From Escherichia coli O127:H6 str. E2348/69 (GTDB taxonomy: Bacteria; Pseudomonadota; Gammaproteobacteria; Enterobacterales; Enterobacteriaceae): 64,000 bases of DNA. Below the pieces are notes generated by a model. It worked only from the letters and a program-made list of their open reading frames with translations, was not told the origin of the DNA and did no database searches. The stretch lies in the NCBI RefSeq assembly GCF_000026545.1, contig NC_011601.1. One strand, given 5' to 3'. Below, piece by piece: positions 37,763 through 47,436 of this stretch. Position numbers and translations under genes: made by a program. Numbering within the stretch: the stretch's first letter is position 1; each line of letters begins with the position of its first letter.

Positions 37763-38362
37763 ATGCAAATTGGCTATATTCGTGTGTCAACAAATGACCA
37801 GAACACGGATTTACAACGCAATGCACTGAACTGCGCAGGATGTGAACTGATTTTTGAAGATAAAATCAGCGGAACGAAATCAGCCAGACCGGGATTGAAA
37901 AAACTGCTCAGAACGCTATCAGAAGGAGATACGCTGGTTGTCTGGAAGCTGGACAGACTGGGCAGAAGTATGAAACACCTGATCACGCTTATTGAGGAAT
38001 TGCGGGAAAAAGGTGTTAATTTCCGTAGTCTGACGGACAGCATTGACACATCAACACCCATGGGGCGTTTCTTTTTTCACGTCATGGGGGCTTTAGCCGA
38101 AATGGAACGTGAATTAATTGTAGAGCGTACACTGGCCGGGCTGGCAGCAGCACGCGCACAAGGACGCATTGGCGGACGTCGCCCGAAGTTGACAAAAGAA
38201 CAACACGAGCAAATAGCGAGGCTGATTAAAAACGGTCATGACAGGAAACAACTGGCGATCATTTACGACATCGGCATATCGACGATTTATCGTTATCACC
38301 CTGTAGGCGATATACAGGCTGAAGAAACAACCAGGCAGACTCAGGAAAATAAAAACCGCTAA
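37763..38362 (+). CDS. serine recombinase DNA invertase (Gin/Cin/Pin/Hin family)
   Basis: 199-aa product MQIGYIRVSTNDQNTDLQRNAL ... LVVWKLDRLGRSMKHL ... GRIGGRRPKLT, near-colinear with Mu Gin; the listed ORF 37568..38362 includes a spurious upstream extension. Confidence 0.92.
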   Translation: MQIGYIRVSTNDQNTDLQRNALNCAGCELIFEDKISGTKSARPGLKKLLRTLSEGDTLVVWKLDRLGRSMKHLITLIEELREKGVNFRSLTDSIDTSTPMGRFFFHVMGALAEMERELIVERTLAGLAAARAQGRIGGRRPKLTKEQHEQIARLIKNGHDRKQLAIIYDIGISTIYRYHPVGDIQAEETTRQTQENKNR

Positions 38363-38388: not shown

Positions 38389-38883
38389 TCAAAACAGCCC
38401 TTTAACGGAGCTGGCCGCGCTGTTAAGGGATGATGTGACCTTATCTTTGAAGCCGGACAGCATATCACTGAACGATGAGGATTGCAGGCGCTCCCGCAAA
38501 TCCTCATCACAGCGTTCAAGAGTCAGTGAAAATTCTATCTTTTTCGCCTTACCGTAGCGATCAAACTCGGAACGGGTCGTATTCGTTTCAGTCAGTACAT
38601 ACATGCCGTAAATCTGCCCGACACCATCAATCAGAGGCCAGGGGCGTCCTGTATATGCCTGCGTGGTCAGCAACGAAAGCGACACTTCGCCACCTGTAAT
38701 TTCAGGATAAAGCACGCCGGAAAGCACGATGCGATCATCACCTGCGCCGATATACTGCCAGCTTGCTGAACGGTTAACGCGTTCATTTTTCACATGCCGC
38801 CAGCTTTTGTTTTGCTGTAACTGCTGATGCGGCAATGTGCGCAGCTCAAAAACAAACATGCCGTAGATCATCATCATGGCCAT
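38389..38883 (-). CDS. U: tail protein U
   Basis: 164-aa ORF; strong parallel to P2 gpU (MMM..G.FVF ... LSGVLYPE.TGG ... AWPLI.G.G.IYGM.V ... IDFSLTL.R.DE). Confidence 0.88.
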   Translation of the reverse strand: MAMMMIYGMFVFELRTLPHQQLQQNKSWRHVKNERVNRSASWQYIGAGDDRIVLSGVLYPEITGGEVSLSLLTTQAYTGRPWPLIDGVGQIYGMYVLTETNTTRSEFDRYGKAKKIEFSLTLERCDEDLRERLQSSSFSDMLSGFKDKVTSSLNSAASSVKGLF

Positions 38884-38889
38884 GACTCC

Positions 38890-41733
38890 TCAATCTTTAT
38901 CGTAAAAACTGCCACGTCCGGCACGGTCGCGTCGTTCCAATTCTGCCCTGACCATTTCACCGACCAGTTTCGCCAGTTTGCGGGGATTCTGCGTAACAAC
39001 GTTATGCAGATGAACATGAATTTCACCGCCAAATCCGGAGACAACAGGCTCCCGGTTACGGGAAGTTGCAGGAACTGATGCCACTGGCGATCGTATGGCC
39101 TCCGCCACCGGGCGGGAGCTGGCCGCAACAACAGGGACCAGCGCCGGAGGCAGAGGAGTCGGGACCACGGGTGTGATGTTGATTGCGGAAGCAGGCTTAC
39201 TGACCTGCGCAATCTTCCGCTCCTGCCACTCCCCACGAACAGCAAGTGCGCGGGGCAGATTCTTAAAGACAATATCGCCGGGGCCAATGCGTTTTTTCGT
39301 CTCATCAACCAGCTTACCTGTGTTATCAGCAATTTTGCTGAGTCTGCGTAGCGTACCGGTATTGCTGTCTGTGAGCGGTTTGTTGTCTTTGGGTTTATCA
39401 CCTCCGGTGCCATTGCCATTTTCCACAGGCTTCGGCGGATTGATTTTCGCCAGGTCCCCCTGAAGCAAGGCAACCTTGTCCTGAAGAATGGCCGCACGCT
39501 GTGCGTCTTCGATTTTCTTGCGCGCCCTTTCCGCTTCATCCGGAAGGACGCCAAGTTTTTCAAGTATCCACGCCAGCGTATCCAGTAGCATTTTTGCAGG
39601 CGTCAGAACAAGTTGTAACGCACCGCCAAGAACGTTACCGAATATCTCGCCAGCACTGGTACATTTATCCAGCGTTTCCTTGCTGGACTCCATCGGTGAC
39701 AGCAGCGATTTAAACCAGTTAAACACCTGGCTGATCCCGCTTCCGATTGCGTCAAAAACAGGACCAAACCGTTCAAAGGTTTCGCGCAACGGGGCCAGCC
39801 TTTCCATAATCCCGCTGAACACCCCGGCAAAAAATGCCCTGATGGGATCCCAGTATTTCCAGATAAGAACGGCAGCTCCGGCAAGTGCAGCCACGATAAG
39901 ACCAACCGGACTGAACAGCGCCCCGATAGCGCCTCCCAGTAAAGAAACGGAACCCGTCACCATTCCCCATAGTGCTGGCAGGACCCTGACAGCATTCATT
40001 GATCCGGTCAGGAGAGAAAAACCAAGACGCAGTTTTGCCAGCGGACCAGCAAGCACACCAATAGCCAGCGACAACGAGCCAACCGTTGCAGTCATTGCCA
40101 GCAACGCACCGCCTGCTATCAGTAGCTGGCGCGTCAGTGCCGGATGGGCCTGCGCCAGCGCCGTCACCCTTGATACCACCCGCGTGAGCCACTGCGTGAC
40201 AGAACGCAGCGGACCGTCAATCAGATCTGCAATGCGGATGCGCAACCCTTCCCATGCACTGCCGAGTGATTTCAGATCGCCGTCAAGGTTGTTGGCCATA
40301 ACCTTTGCTGTGCGTTCAGCCTCACCGCGCGCGCCTTCAAGTTCTTTTCTCAGTTTGGGTAAGGAACCGTCACCCGCTGCATCAACGAGCGCCATAAACG
40401 ATGTGAAAGCCTCTTCTCCGGCAATGTCCTTAAAGAACGATACCCGGTCAACTTCCCCGTATTTGCGGGTGGCTTTATAAAGGTCGGCCAGCACATCCTC
40501 CATCGGGCGCATTTTGCCCCCGGCATCCGAGACGGACACGCCCAGCTCTTTCAGAGCTTCTGCCGCCGCCTTTGGCGGTGATGCCAGACGAGCCAGGCTG
40601 GCACGCATTGCCGTCCCGGCATCACTCCCTCTGATGCCCATATTCGCCAGCACGCCAGCCATCGCTGCGGCCTGCTCCAGCGATATTCCCAGCTTACCCG
40701 CCACCGGACCTGCATATTTCATGGTTTCGCCCAGTGCGCGAAGGTCAGTGTTGGTACGGGTAAACGCTGCGGTGAGTGTGTCACCGACCCGGTCCATCTG
40801 GTCAGCAGAAAGGCCGAACTGCGTCAGGATATTTGAGCCAATATCTGCCGTCTCGCCGAGATCCATACCGCCAGCCGTTGCCATGCTCAGCACTCCGGGA
40901 AGCGCAGCCTGAATGGCCTGCGGTGTGAAGCCAGCCATTGCAAGAAATGCCTGCCCACTGGCGGCATCGCCTGCGGTGAACTGCGTTTCAGAGCCAAGTT
41001 TTAACGCCTGCTCACGCAGCGCCTTAAACTGCGGGCTGTTCTGGTCGATTCGCGTCAGCGCCTGAACGCGGGACATCTCTTTGCCGAACCCGATCGCGGG
41101 CTGCAAAAAACGCCCGGCAGCATAGCCGCCCGCCGCTGCCGCACCAATTGCCAGCGCACCACCTGTTTTCAGTTTTCCCGCGGTTTCCTGCGCGCGCGAA
41201 TACCGCTCACGCGCCCGCGTTACACGCGCAAGCGCCTGCCGTTCGCGTTCAAGCTGGTTGTTGTACTGTTCGGTGCGTCTGATGGCCTGCTGGATGGTGT
41301 TATCGCTGCCTGTCAGGGAAATGCCGTGGCGTTTCAGCTCTCCGCCAAGTTCCCGCATTTTCTGAATTTCCCGTGTGCGCGATTCATTCAGGCGTTCAAG
41401 CCGGGTGCTTAACTGCTGCATCAGCTTTTGTTGTTTTTCGCTGAGCACTGTACCCGTGCGTTGTAACTGATTAAGAGCGTTAAGCTGGCGTCGTGCTTTC
41501 AATATGCCAGCATCCGCTTTACTGACAGCGTCACGGGCGCGCTCAAATGAACGCGCCTGACGCTCGAGATTTTTGATCGCCCCCTGCGTTCGCTGGATGG
41601 AGTCACCAAACTGCCCCATCAGGCGGCGGGCGTTTTCGGCAGGCCGGGTCAGCCTGTCAACGGCGCTGAAAGCGACCCGGATATCAAGAGTCTTCATTGT
41701 CTGTATTCCCGCTGCGAAGTGCCGCCCGCTCAC
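38890..41733 (-). CDS. T: tail tape measure protein
   Basis: 947-aa Ala/Gly/Leu-rich ORF with coiled N-terminal region; position after E/E'. Confidence 0.85.
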   Translation of the reverse strand: MSGRHFAAGIQTMKTLDIRVAFSAVDRLTRPAENARRLMGQFGDSIQRTQGAIKNLERQARSFERARDAVSKADAGILKARRQLNALNQLQRTGTVLSEKQQKLMQQLSTRLERLNESRTREIQKMRELGGELKRHGISLTGSDNTIQQAIRRTEQYNNQLERERQALARVTRARERYSRAQETAGKLKTGGALAIGAAAAGGYAAGRFLQPAIGFGKEMSRVQALTRIDQNSPQFKALREQALKLGSETQFTAGDAASGQAFLAMAGFTPQAIQAALPGVLSMATAGGMDLGETADIGSNILTQFGLSADQMDRVGDTLTAAFTRTNTDLRALGETMKYAGPVAGKLGISLEQAAAMAGVLANMGIRGSDAGTAMRASLARLASPPKAAAEALKELGVSVSDAGGKMRPMEDVLADLYKATRKYGEVDRVSFFKDIAGEEAFTSFMALVDAAGDGSLPKLRKELEGARGEAERTAKVMANNLDGDLKSLGSAWEGLRIRIADLIDGPLRSVTQWLTRVVSRVTALAQAHPALTRQLLIAGGALLAMTATVGSLSLAIGVLAGPLAKLRLGFSLLTGSMNAVRVLPALWGMVTGSVSLLGGAIGALFSPVGLIVAALAGAAVLIWKYWDPIRAFFAGVFSGIMERLAPLRETFERFGPVFDAIGSGISQVFNWFKSLLSPMESSKETLDKCTSAGEIFGNVLGGALQLVLTPAKMLLDTLAWILEKLGVLPDEAERARKKIEDAQRAAILQDKVALLQGDLAKINPPKPVENGNGTGGDKPKDNKPLTDSNTGTLRRLSKIADNTGKLVDETKKRIGPGDIVFKNLPRALAVRGEWQERKIAQVSKPASAINITPVVPTPLPPALVPVVAASSRPVAEAIRSPVASVPATSRNREPVVSGFGGEIHVHLHNVVTQNPRKLAKLVGEMVRAELERRDRAGRGSFYDKD

Positions 41734-41920
41734 GCCAGCTAACCACTTCGCCGGGAGTCATCATGAAGATTTCGGCGGGCGACCAGTTAAAAATGGTGGC
41801 AATATCCGCCACCAGATCTTCGATGTGCTCAAAGCACACCAGGGTGATTACGCTGCCGTCTCCTGCACGCTCTTCGCGCCAGAGTCTGGCTCGCTCATAA
41901 AATTTACAGCCACAGCGCAC
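41684..41920 (-). other. E' extension frame (read via -1 frameshift from E)
   Basis: ORF in the -1 frame overlapping the 3' end of E and the start of T, as in P2 E+E'. Confidence 0.6.
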
Positions 41921-42222
41921 AACTGAATAAAATCGCGTGACGACATTTTTTTAATCATCACTTCATCCAGTTGTGGCGAGGTCACGCGAGGCAACAGCGT
42001 GAACATGGTATCCGCTTTCAGATTCAGCACATCAGACAGCGACAGACCACGCAGGGATCCCGCCTGCTCAATAGCCCCGGTGATCTCCACATATGTGATT
42101 TTTTCGGCACCACGCTCAATTGGCCGGGAAAGTTTTACACCACGTTCGACAGCCATATCCTCACCTGCCGTCACATCATCCGCTACGGTGTTATTCCGGG
42201 TTTCAGTATCGATATTTTTCAT
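41848..42222 (-). CDS. E: tail assembly chaperone E
   Basis: Parallels P2 gpE (LRGxSL ... LLPRxTxPxL); the true start may be the internal Met about 22 codons in. Confidence 0.75.
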   Translation of the reverse strand: MKNIDTETRNNTVADDVTAGEDMAVERGVKLSRPIERGAEKITYVEITGAIEQAGSLRGLSLSDVLNLKADTMFTLLPRVTSPQLDEVMIKKMSSRDFIQLCAVAVNFMSEPDSGAKSVQETAA

Positions 42223-42277: not shown

Positions 42278-42790
42278 TCAGCCAAGCCCGAGCGCGGAAC
42301 GGATGCGATCGGGCACAATGTCCTTGCCGTCCTTCCGGTAAATGAAGTTCAGCAGGTCAATCTCCCACAACGGACGATCGTTAACACTCAGCTTGTAGTA
42401 GGTGTTTTTAATGGCGTAAGTGTGTGATGTGGCTTCGCCCTGTTTGGCTTCCCCCATATCAATTTCCGTCACACGTCCGCGCATTTCGACTTCATACAGG
42501 TCGCTTTCTGCATCGGTGTAATATTCACCCGCAAAACGCAGCAGCGTGCCGTCAATCGTGCCGCCATACTTAAGGAACAGCTCACGAACTGCGCCCCCCA
42601 TGACAAAGCTCGCATCAAGCGCGGAGTCGTCCAGACCGAGATCAATACTTACCGCCCCCATCATGCCACCACCCCGGTAGCTGTCGGTTTTGCGCGTCAG
42701 CTTAGGCAGGGTGACGGACGTCACCTTACCCACTTCGTTTTCACCATCCACAAACAGCGTAAAAAAGCGAAGATGTTTTGGCACAGCCAT
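42278..42790 (-). CDS. FII: tail tube protein
   Basis: 170-aa ORF; same size and position as P2 FII. Confidence 0.85.
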   Translation of the reverse strand: MAVPKHLRFFTLFVDGENEVGKVTSVTLPKLTRKTDSYRGGGMMGAVSIDLGLDDSALDASFVMGGAVRELFLKYGGTIDGTLLRFAGEYYTDAESDLYEVEMRGRVTEIDMGEAKQGEATSHTYAIKNTYYKLSVNDRPLWEIDLLNFIYRKDGKDIVPDRIRSALGLG

Positions 42791-43974
42791 CAGGCACCTC
42801 CCAGCACCGCAAATGCGGGTTCAAAGTATTCATCAGTAAACGTCTGGTAAAGCTCCATGTCTTCCAGTGGCGGAACGGGCGTATATTTGTAGCGAATACG
42901 CACACGCCCCTGACGTAAATCCGTGGTGCTGTTATCCACCACGTCATACCAGCACTCCGCGCCAATCAGTTTCCCGGCAGTCACCAGTGAATCCAGTTTT
43001 GCCCTGATGGCACTGATAACATCCTTCACGTTCGCAGGCGTCAGTGGACTGTCGATGGTTTCAAACTGCGCTTCCGCAATTGAATCAGCCAGCACCTGTG
43101 CGGTTCGGGTATACACCTCAAAGATGTAGGCGTTCGTTTCCGGTGTGCGGTTGCCCCAGAAGCGGAACCCGTTGCGACGAATAATGGTCGTGATTTCTTT
43201 GTTGTTGAGGCTGTTGGCATCGCTGTCTTCGGCCTGCAACGACCAGAACACATGCCTCGACATCCCCAGCACATTTTTAACCGGAACGTTGGACAGTGAT
43301 TTGTGCCAGCCCTGCTCATGGTCAATGTACGCACGAAGGCCGCACGCATAGGCAGGCGCGGGGAACGTTTCGTTTTTGCCACTTTTCGGGTTGTAGGCGA
43401 TGAAGTCCGGCCATAAGAGCATCACCTCACGTTCGTTGAATTTCTGGCGGTAGGTAATCGCATCAGCCATCGTGTCACAGCCATGACATGAGGCATACAC
43501 AAACGCGCGCAGTTTACCCGCAATCACGCACAGGGATTTTGTCACCGCCTCCGTGTCCAGCTCCGGCGCGGCCAGAATACGCGGACGGTATCCGATGCTT
43601 TCATCCTGCTCTGCAACAAGCAGCGCATACATCCCCGTATAGCTGCCGTCAGATTCAGAACCACCGATAACCAGTTGATCCTGCGTCTTTCCGTCTTCTT
43701 CTTTGTGTTCAGCCACGCGAACGACGATCACCTTTGTGCTCACCTGGTCTGCGATAGCCTTAAGCGCACGATAAAGCGTCCCCGTTGTCCCGCATTTTCC
43801 CAGCACGTCATTGACGCGGGTCAGCAGTGTGGGCTTGTTCAGCGGGAACAGCTTCGCGTCCGCATCATCCGCCGTTGCCACGATACCGATAACACTGGAA
43901 TCAACATCATTAATCGCTGTTACCAGGTCGGTATTTTCCGTAACACGGGCACCATGAAAACGAGTTTCACTCAT
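42790..43974 (-). CDS. FI: contractile tail sheath protein
   Basis: 394-aa product from MSETRFHGARV inside the listed 42790..44148 ORF; colinear with P2 FI (KLRAF.Y.S..GC, GWHK.LSNV, RR.GFRFWGNRT, YTRTAQV.AD, YTPVPPLE). Confidence 0.9.
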   Translation of the reverse strand: MSETRFHGARVTENTDLVTAINDVDSSVIGIVATADDADAKLFPLNKPTLLTRVNDVLGKCGTTGTLYRALKAIADQVSTKVIVVRVAEHKEEDGKTQDQLVIGGSESDGSYTGMYALLVAEQDESIGYRPRILAAPELDTEAVTKSLCVIAGKLRAFVYASCHGCDTMADAITYRQKFNEREVMLLWPDFIAYNPKSGKNETFPAPAYACGLRAYIDHEQGWHKSLSNVPVKNVLGMSRHVFWSLQAEDSDANSLNNKEITTIIRRNGFRFWGNRTPETNAYIFEVYTRTAQVLADSIAEAQFETIDSPLTPANVKDVISAIRAKLDSLVTAGKLIGAECWYDVVDNSTTDLRQGRVRIRYKYTPVPPLEDMELYQTFTDEYFEPAFAVLGGA

Positions 43975-44131
43975 AGCTTCAGCCCCTTGTATCCGTAAAA
44001 TGATTCGGCAACAATCATCACCCACCACGCGCGTAATCTCACCCCTGCGCCGTTCTCCCGACCCGGCGACAACAAAAAGCAGTAACCCCCTCCGCACGCA
44101 CATGCGACCATGCCGCACAGGGAGGGAACAG

Positions 44132-45232
44132 ATGACCGATACCACCATGCAATTGCTCAGTCAGGGCACAGACCCCGTGAAAATGCCGGATTTTGATATT
44201 CTCGCGGAGGGTAAAACGCTGTCAGGCGTGGCAGAGCGCCTGATGAGCCTGTCACTGACCGACAACCGGGGATTTGAGGCGGACCAGCTCACCATCACGC
44301 TGGATGATGCGGATGGTCAGTTGCAGCTACCGCCACGGGGCGCGCGCCTGACGGTTCTCATTGGCTGGAAAGGAGAACCGCTGACAGAAAAAGGCACTTA
44401 CATTGTTGATGAAATCGCTCACGAAGGACCGCCGGACAGGCTGACTGTTTCAGCCAGAAGCGCAGATTTTCGGGATGAATTTAACGTTAAACGTGAGGTG
44501 TCCTGGCATGATGTGACCGTTGAGCGCGTGGTATCTGCCATCGCTCATCGGTACGGTCTGAAACCGCAAATCAGCGAAATACTGATGGATATCGAAATCG
44601 ACCACGCCGACCAGACCGAAGAAAGCGACATGTCCTTCCTTACGCGCATGGCGGAAATGCTGGGCGCAATCACCACGGTAAAAAGCGGTAATCTGTTATT
44701 CATCATGCCAGGCGGTCGCGTGAACGCACTGGGCCAGCCGTTGCCATCGTTCGCCATCACACGCAGCAGCGGCGATCGCCATCAGTTCCGCATTGCTGAC
44801 CGCGAGGCGTATACGGGTGTACGCGCCTACTGGCTTGATCTTAATTACGGGAAAAAGAAAAAAGTCAGCGTGAAACGCCGCAAACCGAAAAAAGAGAAAA
44901 GCAGCAGCCGTGAAGGTGACTATATGGAAGGTGCGGAAGGCAACGTGTTTGTGTTACGCAAAACTTATCAGAACGAGCAGGCAGCAAGACGCGCAGCGGC
45001 GGCAAAATGGCAGCAGCTACAACGCGGAGCCGCATCATTTTCCATCACGCTGGCACGTGGACGAGCAGAACTCTACCCCGAAATGCATGGCACGGTAACA
45101 GGATTTAAAAGCGAGATTGATAATCAGGACTGGATCATTGCAAAAGCCGAGCACACCATTGATAACAGTGGCTTTACCACGCAGCTTGAGCTTGAAGCCA
45201 AAATCCCGGAATGGATAGCAGAAACAGAGTAA
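44132..45232 (+). CDS. D: tail protein D (late control D / baseplate hub family)
   Basis: 366-aa product from MTDTTMQLLSQG with gggaggga RBS, inside the listed 44000..45232 ORF; position before ogr. Confidence 0.75.
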   Translation: MTDTTMQLLSQGTDPVKMPDFDILAEGKTLSGVAERLMSLSLTDNRGFEADQLTITLDDADGQLQLPPRGARLTVLIGWKGEPLTEKGTYIVDEIAHEGPPDRLTVSARSADFRDEFNVKREVSWHDVTVERVVSAIAHRYGLKPQISEILMDIEIDHADQTEESDMSFLTRMAEMLGAITTVKSGNLLFIMPGGRVNALGQPLPSFAITRSSGDRHQFRIADREAYTGVRAYWLDLNYGKKKKVSVKRRKPKKEKSSSREGDYMEGAEGNVFVLRKTYQNEQAARRAAAAKWQQLQRGAASFSITLARGRAELYPEMHGTVTGFKSEIDNQDWIIAKAEHTIDNSGFTTQLELEAKIPEWIAETE

Positions 45233-46241: not shown

Positions 46242-46502
46242 ATGTTCCGTTGTCCGCTTTGTGGCGCATCTGCCCGTATCCGCACCAGTCGTCCGGAAAA
46301 TGATTCAAACACCGTGCGGCAAAAGTATTACCAGTGTAACAACCTGGAATGCGGCGTATGCTTCTCAACACTGGAAGCTTTCCATAAATTCACATCGAAA
46401 CACGCCTCCGGCATCCACTCTTCAGAAGGTATCCCGTGGCATGAGCTGCCAGCTTCACACAGGGGAAACAATCAGATGAGCTTGCCTTTACCTCAGAATT
46501 AA
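46242..46502 (+). CDS. ogr: late gene activator, Ogr/Delta zinc-finger family
   Basis: MFRCPLCGASARIRTSR ... YYQCNNLECGVCFSTLE matches the P2 Ogr CxxC-N-CxxxxC pattern. Confidence 0.85.
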   Translation: MFRCPLCGASARIRTSRPENDSNTVRQKYYQCNNLECGVCFSTLEAFHKFTSKHASGIHSSEGIPWHELPASHRGNNQMSLPLPQN

Positions 46503-46562: not shown

Positions 46563-46775
46563 ATGGTCGGAGGGAATACCCGAAGGCCAGATGTGGAAAG
46601 GCCCCGGAAAACATCTCTGTTTAACCGAGGCCCTAACCGCATTACCTTGACAAGTGAAAGGTTAGCGCCTCTCCGGAAAAGGAGCAAGTGCTATGTCGCA
46701 AAAATCGCTTACGGCCATCACGTTCTGCGTGACGGCAATCCTCATCATCTGGATGTTGCACGGTTCGCTGTGTGA
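46563..46775 (+). CDS. mok-like overlapping leader reading frame of the hok-type locus
   Basis: 70-aa ORF overlapping the hok-like gene in another frame, as in hok/mok/sok loci. Confidence 0.4.
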   Translation: MVGGNTRRPDVERPRKTSLFNRGPNRITLTSERLAPLRKRSKCYVAKIAYGHHVLRDGNPHHLDVARFAV

Positions 46776-46833
46776 AATACGGATGAGCTTCTGGGGAGCG
46801 GAGTTTGCGGCGTTCTTACAGTGTAAGCAGTAA
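46693..46833 (+). CDS. Hok/Gef-family type I toxin (small membrane protein)
   Basis: 46-aa ORF MSQKSLTAITFCVTAILIIWMLHGSLCEIRMSFWGAEFAAFLQCKQ: one TM helix, then the Hok-family SLCEIR and AAF motifs; ggag RBS upstream; not in the ORF track (under 60 aa). Confidence 0.7.
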   Translation: MSQKSLTAITFCVTAILIIWMLHGSLCEIRMSFWGAEFAAFLQCKQ

Positions 46834-47136: not shown

Positions 47137-47436
47137 TTACTCGTCTTTGGGCGAAGCGTTTTCGACCCGGCTTTTTAACTTCTGCCCGGGTCTGAAGGTC
47201 ACCACGCGCCGTGCTGTAATGGGAATATCCTCGCCCGTTTTCGGGTTACGTCCCGGGCGTTGATTCTTATCACGCAGATCGAAGTTACCAAAACCAGAGA
47301 GTTTCACCTGTTCGCCGTTTTCCAGAGCGCGACGGATCTCTTCGAAAAACAGTTCAACCAGTTCTTTGGCATCCCGCTTGCTAAGCCCAAGCTTATCAAA
47401 CAGATATTCTGACATTTCAGCTTTTGTAAGCGCCAT
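47137..47436 (-). CDS. ihfA: integration host factor alpha subunit
   Basis: 99-aa [41 protein letters not shown]... recognised as IHF-alpha. Confidence 0.95.

What the first reader, a model, noticed from the sequence alone, without database searches (positions are those of the whole stretch)
41848..41945. Programmed -1 frameshift window for the E/E' tail chaperone
Seen in sequence: a -1 frame ORF (41684..41920) opens just after a taa at 41939..41941 (minus strand) and overlaps the last roughly 25 codons of E and the first codons of T. The E reading frame crosses an A7 run (plus-strand T7 at 41934..41940) and a gattttatt stretch inside the overlap. Established knowledge: P2 makes E+E' by -1 frameshifting, analogous to lambda G/GT. 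Inference: the shift occurs on one of these slippery stretches; the exact heptamer is not resolved by eye.
Basis: partly seen in the sequence, partly recalled or inferred. Interest (0 to 1): 0.4.

Follow-up and report, generated by a model that had tools for sequence, protein, structure and literature searches.

The report
Tail-chaperone E/E' frameshift, slip site relocated

Summary
The E / -1 ORF / T overlap is real. The window is 100% identical to the E. coli E2348/69 chromosome, in a P88-like (Xuanwuvirus) prophage. Gene E (41848-42222, minus) is followed by a -1 frame open from 41950 to 41684. That frame has no ribosome-binding site, encodes the Pfam GpE domain, and overlaps the tape-measure start at 41697.

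The A7 run is at 41946-41952 and the -1 frame TAA at 41951-41953.

The only canonical in-frame heptamer is A_AAT_TTT (41905-41899). Its Phe codon aligns with the Phe codon of P2's annotated T_TTT_TTG.

- In 122 distinct relatives a heptamer sits at exactly this codon, and the -1 frame always runs on past the E stop.
- In P88-type relatives a -1 stop follows the A7 run, and gattttatt is gactttatt.
- Protein conservation switches from the 0 frame to the -1 frame at this codon.

This lineage has TTG changed to ATG, so P2's own heptamer is lost and the overlapping upstream one remains. Plaque-forming phage phiSM carries the identical allele.

Predicted product: a 179-aa E+E' with junction ...AVNF|YER.... 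This is a known mechanism in a new, unannotated member with a variant heptamer. Interest is low.

The parts
41848..42222 (-). Gene E, the tail assembly chaperone (124 aa, 13.5 kDa). ATG at 42222, TAA at 41850-41848, and an AAGGAG Shine-Dalgarno at 42235-42230.
   Evidence: phrog_103 at 3e-36. Pfam Phage_TAC_7 at 18 bits, below the 25-bit cut-off. RefSeq calls it 'tail protein'.
41899..41905 (-). Proposed slippery heptamer A_AAT_TTT in the E frame (codons GTA AAT TTT = V106 N107 F108). After the -1 shift the next codon read is TAT (41899-41897).
   Evidence: Only canonical heptamer in the overlap. Invariant in 78 of 78 close relatives. Its Phe codon is homologous to the Phe codon of P2's T_TTT_TTG.
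41684..41950 (-). Open -1 frame (E'), 88 codons after the TAA at 41953-41951, with stop TGA at 41686-41684. The part translated after the shift is 41899-41687 (71 codons).
   Evidence: Pfam Phage_P2_GpE at 1.2e-12 on residues 47-82, which is 41812-41705. phrog_1756 at 2.5e-38 covers the fusion from residue 104.
41946..41952 (-). Judged not to be the site.
   Evidence: Position. Phased AAA_AAA_A, so it is not X_XXY_YYZ. A -1 stop lies downstream of it in P88-type and in 3 IMG/VR relatives.
Judged not to be the site.
   Evidence: Reads GAC TTT ATT in P88-type relatives and GAC TTT ATC in one close relative. Shifting here would replace the conserved E residues 99-108.
41855..41890 (-). Imperfect hairpin starting 8 nt after the heptamer (-15.2 kcal/mol). 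A possible stimulator, not established.
   Evidence: z = -1.9 against shuffles. Within the top 7.4% of same-length segments in the tail operon. Absent from the P88-type allele.
38890..41697 (-). Gene T, the tape measure. Its ATG at 41697 overlaps the end of E' by 14 nt.
   Evidence: Pfam PhageMin_Tail at 3.6e-58. RefSeq start.
42278..42790 (-). Gene FII, the tail tube, immediately upstream of E.
   Evidence: Pfam Phage_tube at 7.5e-47.

Best explanation
Most ribosomes translating E terminate at TAA 41850-41848 and make the 124-aa chaperone. A minority slip back one nucleotide at A_AAU_UUU (41905-41899).

In the slip, tRNA-Asn on AAU re-pairs with AAA, and tRNA-Phe on UUU re-pairs with UUU. Alternatively tRNA-Phe slips alone on U_UUU. 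Both routes give the same protein. The ribosome then reads UAU GAG CGA... in the -1 frame down to TGA 41686-41684.

The product is a 179-aa, 20-kDa E+E' protein with junction ...CAVAVNF|YERARLW.... It carries the GpE domain at its C-terminus.

By analogy with P2 E/E+E' and lambda G/GT, both forms would coat the tape-measure protein, and the E' extension would recruit tube subunits. The roughly fixed E:E+E' ratio would be set by the slip frequency.

Shown here: the ORF geometry, the homology, the conserved position of the heptamer, and dual-frame conservation. Inferred: that the shift happens, which tRNAs slip, its frequency, and the function of the two proteins.
For: 1. Geometry and homology.
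- FII-E-(-1 ORF)-T order.
- GpE domain in the -1 frame.
- The fusion aligns over its full length with P2 E+E', with the junctions in the same column.

2. A_AAT_TTT is the only canonical heptamer in the 33-codon overlap.

3. Comparative position.
- In 122 distinct loci the site was located from an E-protein motif alone. A canonical heptamer starts exactly 31-32 codons after the motif in all 122, placing the Phe codon at offset 32.
- The -1 frame from that point runs past the E stop in all 122.
- In 28 loci the -1 frame opens only 0-4 codons before that Phe codon.

4. Conservation switch at that codon (253 pairs).
- Upstream: 0 frame 0.57, -1 frame 0.35.
- Downstream: 0 frame 0.49, -1 frame 0.61.
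- Window against P88 downstream: 0.50 against 0.75.

5. The -1 frame carries stops at 0.052 per codon upstream of the site.

6. The allele is fit.
- The exact 70-nt sequence is in 524 E. coli records.
- E' is full length in 70 of 78 IMG/VR relatives.
- The phage record Shae_phiSM has the identical overlap. phiSM forms plaques and lysogenises (PMC6456863).

7. A_AAU_UUU belongs to the H_HHU_UUY class, ranked among the best -1 motifs in E. coli. It reaches 11.4% with a pseudoknot, against 0.77% for U_UUU_UUG (PMC4066793).

8. There is no SD before either GTG in the -1 frame. GTG 41839 lies inside a predicted stem.
Against: - There is no protein-level evidence for this element.
- Without a stimulator, A_AAU_UUU gave only 0.07% in the reporter, near the 0.055% background.
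- No significant or conserved downstream structure and no upstream SD-like sequence was found.
- The P2 heptamer itself (T_TTT_TTG) is destroyed here by TTG to ATG. A reduced or lost shift cannot be excluded from sequence alone.
- Close relatives are nearly identical around the site, so within-clade conservation carries little weight.
Confidence: 0.8

Rival explanations
1. The shift occurs on the A7 run (41952-41946). This could be an A-site slip of tRNA-Lys on A_AAA, or RNA polymerase adding an extra A, which also puts downstream codons in the -1 frame.
For: - The -1 frame opens exactly at this run in the window.
- The A_AAA tetramer is weakly shifty in E. coli: 0.26% with a pseudoknot.
- A7 runs are under-represented in E. 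coli genes, attributed partly to transcriptional slippage.
Against: - The run is phased AAA_AAA_A, so the P-site tRNA would re-pair on UAA.
- P88-type relatives and 3 closer IMG/VR loci have a -1 TGA downstream of the run yet keep an intact E'.
- The run is absent in Klebsiella, Enterobacter, Fels-2 and P2 homologues.
- The product would replace E residues 94-108, which are conserved in the 0 frame.
Confidence: 0.04
2. The shift occurs on GAT TTT ATT (41934-41926), by tRNA-Phe slipping on the U_UUU tetramer.
For: U_UUU is the third most shift-prone tetramer in E. coli, at 0.80% with a pseudoknot. It lies inside the open -1 window.
Against: - It is not a heptamer. The P-site GAU would re-pair on CGA.
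- P88-type relatives read GAC TTT, so the slip would land on CUU. One close relative reads GAC TTT ATC.
- It is not conserved in other genera.
- The -1 frame is poorly conserved between this site and the heptamer, at 0.35.
Confidence: 0.05
3. E' is made as a separate small protein, as RefSeq annotates it (GTG 41839 to 41684, 51 aa). Expression would be by reinitiation after the E stop 9 nt upstream, with no frameshift.
For: - RefSeq and several phage records annotate it this way.
- GTG 41839 lies 9 nt after the E stop, a geometry that permits termination-reinitiation.
- The P2 heptamer is lost in this lineage.
Against: - There is no SD upstream, and the GTG is inside a predicted 9-bp stem.
- The -1 frame is more conserved than the 0 frame across the 17 codons upstream of that GTG. 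It has no stops there in any of 122 distinct loci.
- The GTG is not conserved in Klebsiella or Enterobacter relatives.
- In P2 the frame is translated as an extension of E (P2 record annotation; PMC3091744).
Confidence: 0.05
4. The TTG to ATG change disabled the frameshift, and E' is a decaying remnant in a defective prophage.
For: - T_TTT_TTN is present in 66 of 76 distinct contexts but not here.
- Naked A_AAU_UUU is near background in reporters.
- A few IMG/VR relatives have a truncated E'.
Against: - The identical allele is in phiSM, a plaque-forming phage.
- E' is intact in 70 of 78 relatives, and the allele occurs in 524 E. coli records.
- The Klebsiella Reipivirus lineage independently keeps only the upstream heptamer, C_CCT_TTC.
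Confidence: 0.05

Closest known systems
Bacteriophage P2 E / E+E' programmed -1 frameshift (Christie et al. 2002, J Bacteriol 184:6522; NC_001895 features P2p25/P2p26)
   Same: - Same gene order (FI, FII, E, E', T, U).
- Homologous proteins: 33% identity over the whole fusion, 9e-30.
- The -1 ORF has no initiation site, overlaps the end of E and the start of T, and carries the GpE domain.
- The slip falls at the same aligned Phe codon.
- No evident stimulatory structure.
   Different: - The heptamer is A_AAT_TTT, with the Phe codon in the A site. P2 has T_TTT_TTG, with the Phe codon in the P site.
- P2's heptamer is broken here by TTG to ATG.
- E is 124 aa against 91 aa in P2.
- The slip lies 17 codons before the E stop, against 7 in P2.
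- gpD is not downstream of U, and an invertase follows U instead.
Escherichia phage P88 and other Xuanwuvirus (Peduoviridae), including Citrobacter phage phiSM
   Same: - 84-97% nucleotide identity across E/E'/T.
- phiSM has an identical overlap region.
- None of these records annotates the join.
   Different: P88-type alleles read GTA AAT TTT TTG, which holds both heptamers overlapping. They also have a -1 stop after the A7 run. The window/phiSM-type keeps only A_AAT_TTT.
Phage lambda G/GT tail assembly chaperone frameshift (Levin 1993; Xu, Hendrix and Duda 2004, 2013, 2014)
   Same: - Two overlapping ORFs lie between the major tail gene and the tape-measure gene.
- A low-level -1 shift near the end of the first ORF sets a fixed ratio.
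- The products are not in virions.
   Different: - No sequence similarity.
- The lambda heptamer is G_GGA_AAG, with tRNA-Lys in the A site.
- Lambda has a siphovirus tail, not a contractile one.
Klebsiella Reipivirus-type E genes (e.g. phage ST16-OXA48phi5.4)
   Same: A second lineage that lacks T_TTT_TTN and keeps only the heptamer one codon upstream, C_CCT_TTC.
   Different: Different P-site codon (CCT, Pro). About 50% protein identity. The -1 frame is open much further upstream.

Membership tests
P2-type E/E+E' -1 frameshift cassette | Located between the tail tube gene (FII) and the tape-measure gene (T) | tested here: met
   Pfam Phage_tube, PhageMin_Tail and GpU on the neighbouring genes. 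RefSeq annotation agrees.
P2-type E/E+E' -1 frameshift cassette | The upstream ORF is homologous to gpE | tested here: met
   BLASTP of the fusion against P2 E+E' gives 9e-30, including the E part. phrog_103 at 3e-36. Pfam Phage_TAC_7 reaches only 18 bits against a cut-off of 25.
P2-type E/E+E' -1 frameshift cassette | A -1 frame ORF encodes the GpE (PF06528) domain, has no initiation signal of its own, and overlaps the E 3' end and the T 5' end | tested here: met
   47.5 bits against a cut-off of 23. No SD visible in the sequence. Overlaps of 100 nt with E and 14 nt with T.
P2-type E/E+E' -1 frameshift cassette | T_TTT_TTG heptamer in the E frame | tested here: not met
   The window reads AAT TTT ATG. 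66 of 76 distinct contexts elsewhere have T_TTT_TTN.
P2-type E/E+E' -1 frameshift cassette | A canonical X_XXY_YYZ heptamer at the conserved Phe codon, with the -1 frame open from there | tested here: met
   A_AAT_TTT at 41905-41899. The same codon position holds a heptamer in 122 of 122 distinct loci.
P2-type E/E+E' -1 frameshift cassette | The fusion protein is actually produced (about 10% in P2) and E' is essential | not testable with these tools
   Only indirect support: plaque-forming phiSM has the identical allele.
Stimulated bacterial -1 PRF (dnaX / IS3 / IS911 type) | A downstream hairpin or pseudoknot 5-9 nt after the heptamer, and/or an SD-like sequence 6-17 nt upstream | tested here: inconclusive
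   A hairpin starts 8 nt downstream (-15.2 kcal/mol). It is not significant (z -1.9, top 7.4%) and is not shared with P88. No SD-like sequence is visible upstream. No Rfam match.
Transcriptional slippage recoding | A long homopolymer (typically 9 or more A/T) at the frame junction, conserved among relatives | tested here: not met
   The only run is A7. It is followed by a -1 stop in relatives. The conserved site has only A3T4.

The most novel reading that the evidence does not exclude
In the P2 family the conserved slip element may not be the textbook T_TTT_TTG heptamer. It may instead be tRNA-Phe slipping on the invariant U_UUY Phe codon.

The window/phiSM lineage (AAT TTT ATG) and the Reipivirus lineage (CCT TTC TTG) act as natural mutants showing that the 3' TTG is dispensable. 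The window-type allele may also have become dependent on a newly acquired hairpin 8 nt downstream (41890-41855). That would fit A_AAU_UUU being near-silent alone (0.07%) but strongly stimulator-responsive (11.4%). If so, it would point to the still-unknown feature that lifts P2-family frameshifting far above reporter values for the naked heptamers.
Probability: 0.2. Interest if true: 0.35.

Novelty: new member of a known kind. Interest (0 to 1): 0.2.

Why it matters
- Annotation. RefSeq and all seven related phage records checked list E' as a free-standing 51-aa ORF or omit it. The same allele is in about 10% of complete E. coli genomes, and the P88-type allele in about 13-15%. A joined CDS with the slip at 41899-41905 would correct hundreds of records.
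- Frameshift-prediction tools. This shows that homologous tail-chaperone genes can move the functional heptamer by one codon while keeping the same slipping tRNA. Searching for the family's textbook heptamer would therefore miss such cases.
- It does not change understanding of tail assembly or recoding.

Tried and rejected
- A7 run and gattttatt as slip sites. Rejected on phasing, on -1 stops in relatives, and on lack of conservation.
- Independent initiation of E'. Rejected: no SD, the GTG lies in a stem, and the -1 frame is conserved upstream of it.
- Downstream stimulatory structure.
  - 60-nt folds are not different from shuffles for the window (z -0.46), P88 (+0.30) and P2 (-0.01).
  - A 51-nt fold gives z -1.9 and falls in the empirical top 7.4%. 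This was left as inconclusive.
- Rfam: no relevant family.
- NCBIfam: no hit for E or for the fusion.
- PDB sequence search with the E+E' profile: no hit.
- Literature search for AAATTTT with frameshift and tail: only an irrelevant Wolbachia hydrolase case.
- Christie 2002 (PMC135442) is not held. P2 facts come from the GenBank features, from PMC3091744, from PMC5009743, and from my own recollection of the abstract (about 10% efficiency; E' essential).
- The first version of the -1 stop count was partly circular, because the site was chosen inside the open frame. It was redone from an E-protein motif.

Full report
**What is in the sequence**

On the minus strand the window carries a P2-type tail operon.

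| Gene | Coordinates |
|---|---|
| sheath | 42790-44148 |
| tube FII | 42278-42790 |
| 124-aa ORF (E) | 41848-42222 |
| tape measure T | 38890-41697 |
| gpU | 38389-38883 |

The 124-aa ORF has a strong AAGGAG ribosome-binding site. It matches phrog_103 (3e-36) and, below threshold, Pfam Phage_TAC_7.

In the -1 frame relative to E, the sequence is open from 41950 to the TGA at 41686-41684. 41950 is the first codon after a TAA at 41953-41951. This frame encodes the Pfam GpE domain (1.2e-12, 47.5 bits against a cut-off of 23). It overlaps the last 33 codons of E and 14 nt of T.

The region is 100% identical to the E. coli E2348/69 chromosome. There RefSeq lists E as 'tail protein' and a separate 51-aa 'GpE family phage tail protein' starting at GTG 41839. 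The nearest phages are Xuanwuvirus (P884B11, phiSM, P88) at 84-98% identity. None of their records joins the two ORFs.

**Check of the observation**

- The A7 run is at 41946-41952.
- The -1 frame TAA is at 41951-41953.

The A7 run therefore lies outside the stated span. gattttatt is at 41934-41926.

**Where the shift most likely occurs**

A codon-by-codon listing and a heptamer scan show a single canonical X_XXY_YYZ motif in the E frame within the overlap. It is GT**A AAT TTT** ATG, at 41905-41899.

In P2, the annotated frameshift site is GG**T TTT TTG**. Protein alignment places P2 ...VVGFL... over the window's ...AVNFM... with no gap. The same Phe codon is therefore the P-site codon of P2's heptamer and the A-site codon of the window's heptamer.

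**Comparative test**

I collected 78 usable close relatives from IMG/VR. I also collected 80 loci from one-genome-per-species bacterial assemblies, plus P2, Fels-2, P88, Chuche, a Klebsiella Reipivirus and an Enterobacter Novemvirus.

First, I located the site from an E-protein motif only (LLPRVTSP-like), which is independent of the -1 frame.
- All 122 distinct loci have a canonical heptamer starting 31 or 32 codons after the motif, which puts the Phe codon at offset 32.
- In all 122 the -1 frame from that point runs past the E stop, with a median extension of 64.5 codons.

The -1 frame opens only 0-4 codons before the Phe codon in 28 loci. That leaves essentially no other place to shift in those genomes.

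The codon triplet at the site, among 76 distinct contexts:

| Context | Count |
|---|---|
| NNT TTT TTG/A/C | 66 |
| AAT TTT ATG (window type) | 7 |
| CCT TTC TTG (Klebsiella type) | 2 |

P88-type relatives read GTA AAT TTT TTG, which holds both heptamers overlapping. The window lineage has kept only the upstream one.

- P88-type genomes and three closer relatives have a -1 TGA downstream of the A7 run.
- gattttatt reads GAC TTT ATT or GAC TTT ATC in relatives.
- Neither stretch exists in other genera.

**Dual-coding signature**

I compared 23 loci sharing the window's architecture, giving 253 pairs.

| Region | 0 frame identity | -1 frame identity |
|---|---|---|
| 15 codons up to and including the Phe codon | 0.57 | 0.35 |
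| Phe codon to E stop | 0.49 | 0.61 |
| Phe codon to E stop, window against P88 | 0.50 | 0.75 |

Upstream of the site the -1 frame also contains stops in several relatives. Overall, -1 frame stops occur at 0.052 per codon upstream of the site. The switch in conservation at the Phe codon is what translation of the -1 frame from that point predicts. It argues against E' starting at GTG 41839.

**Is the variant allele functional?**

- The exact 70-nt allele occurs in 524 records, covering 598 of 5,426 complete E. coli genomes at 95% identity or better.
- The P88-type allele occurs exactly in 698 records.
- E' is full length in 70 of 78 IMG/VR relatives.
- The phage record Shae_phiSM from C. rodentium DBS100 has an identical overlap region.
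- phiSM is a spontaneously released, plaque-forming, lysogenising phage (PMC6456863).

In P2, E' is essential (my recollection of the Christie 2002 abstract; the paper is not held).

**Mechanism and efficiency**

Sharma et al. 2014 (PMC4066793) rank H_HHU_UUY heptamers among the most efficient -1 motifs in E. coli. Their Table S3 gives these frameshift percentages:

| Motif | No stimulator | IS911 stimulators | IS3 pseudoknot |
|---|---|---|---|
| AAAUUUU | 0.070 | 0.355 | 11.4 |
| UUUUUUG | 0.118 | 0.247 | 0.77 |
| CCCUUUC | 0.193 | 1.39 | 23.2 |

A_AAU_UUU is therefore at least as competent as P2's motif once stimulated, but nearly silent alone.

I found no convincing stimulator.
- 60-nt downstream folds do not differ from shuffles in the window, P88 or P2. 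This agrees with the literature statement that P2-type sites lack hairpins (PMC3091744).
- The window-type allele does have an imperfect hairpin starting 8 nt after the heptamer (41890-41855, -15.2 kcal/mol). It is only marginal (z -1.9; top 7.4% of operon segments) and is absent from P88-type alleles.
- No Rfam family matches.

What boosts shifting in this family remains unexplained.

**Predicted products**

- E: 124 aa, 13.5 kDa.
- E+E': 179 aa, 20.0 kDa, junction ...CAVAVNF|YERARLWREERAGDGSVITL....
- Diagnostic tryptic peptide: DFIQLCAVAVNFYER.

Tandem slippage of tRNA-Asn and tRNA-Phe, or a lone tRNA-Phe slip on U_UUU, would give the same protein. I cannot distinguish the two from sequence.

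**Comparison with what is known, and verdict**

This is the P2 E/E+E' recoding cassette. It is the counterpart of lambda G/GT (PMC5009743) in a P88-like prophage. All structural criteria for membership are met except the literal T_TTT_TTG heptamer. That is replaced by the overlapping A_AAT_TTT, one codon upstream.

Its coordinates for two features are wrong, and the two slip sites it named are not supported. The finding is a correct recognition of a known mechanism in an unannotated member. It is useful for annotation but of low novelty.

Noticed in passing
window 37763-38362 (+) and downstream to about 36000: A DNA invertase (RefSeq 'recombinase family protein', Hin/Gin/Pin type) sits directly after gpU. 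It is followed by a partial tail-fibre gene and oppositely oriented tail-fibre and fibre-assembly genes. This looks like an invertible host-range segment, which P2 lacks.
   Followed up: no
window 44132-45232 (+): The gpD (late control D) homologue is divergently transcribed upstream of the sheath gene. In P2's FETUD operon it follows U instead.
   Followed up: no
window 41684-41839 (-): RefSeq annotates E' as a free-standing 51-aa CDS from a GTG with no Shine-Dalgarno. None of the related phage records checked joins E and E'. This is a systematic annotation gap affecting hundreds of E. coli genomes.
   Followed up: yes
window about 41841-41821 and 41814-41794 (-): Two strong hairpins lie inside the E' coding region: GGUGUGCUUUGAGCACAUC and GGUGGCGGAUAUUGCCACC. 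They drive z = -3.5 for the 120-nt fold. The first buries GTG 41839. They are 57 nt or more from the heptamer, so they are not classical stimulators.
   Followed up: partly
L087 (IMGVR_UViG_2534681835_000034), around position 1494: A P88-type sequence background carrying the same TTG to ATG change as the window, without the window-type hairpin. No exact copy exists among 5,426 complete E. coli genomes. It may be an independent occurrence of the change or a recombinant.
   Followed up: partly
L091, L150 (MAG labelled Collinsella sp.) and L131 (labelled Chryseobacterium sp.): Contigs assigned to non-enterobacterial genomes carry enterobacterial P2-like E/E' genes, 74% identical to the query in L091. 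This is probably mis-binning or contamination.
   Followed up: no
L092, L093 (Candidatus Symbiopectobacterium): The E/E' cassette is degraded in these symbiont genomes. E is truncated in one, and an upstream frameshift mutation fuses the frames in the other. These are pseudogenised prophage tails.
   Followed up: partly
window 46693-46833 (+), 46242-46502 (+), 47137-47436 (-): A Hok/Gef toxin gene and an Ogr/Delta zinc-finger late activator lie at the prophage end, next to ihfA and pheT. This marks the prophage boundary and integration region.
   Followed up: no
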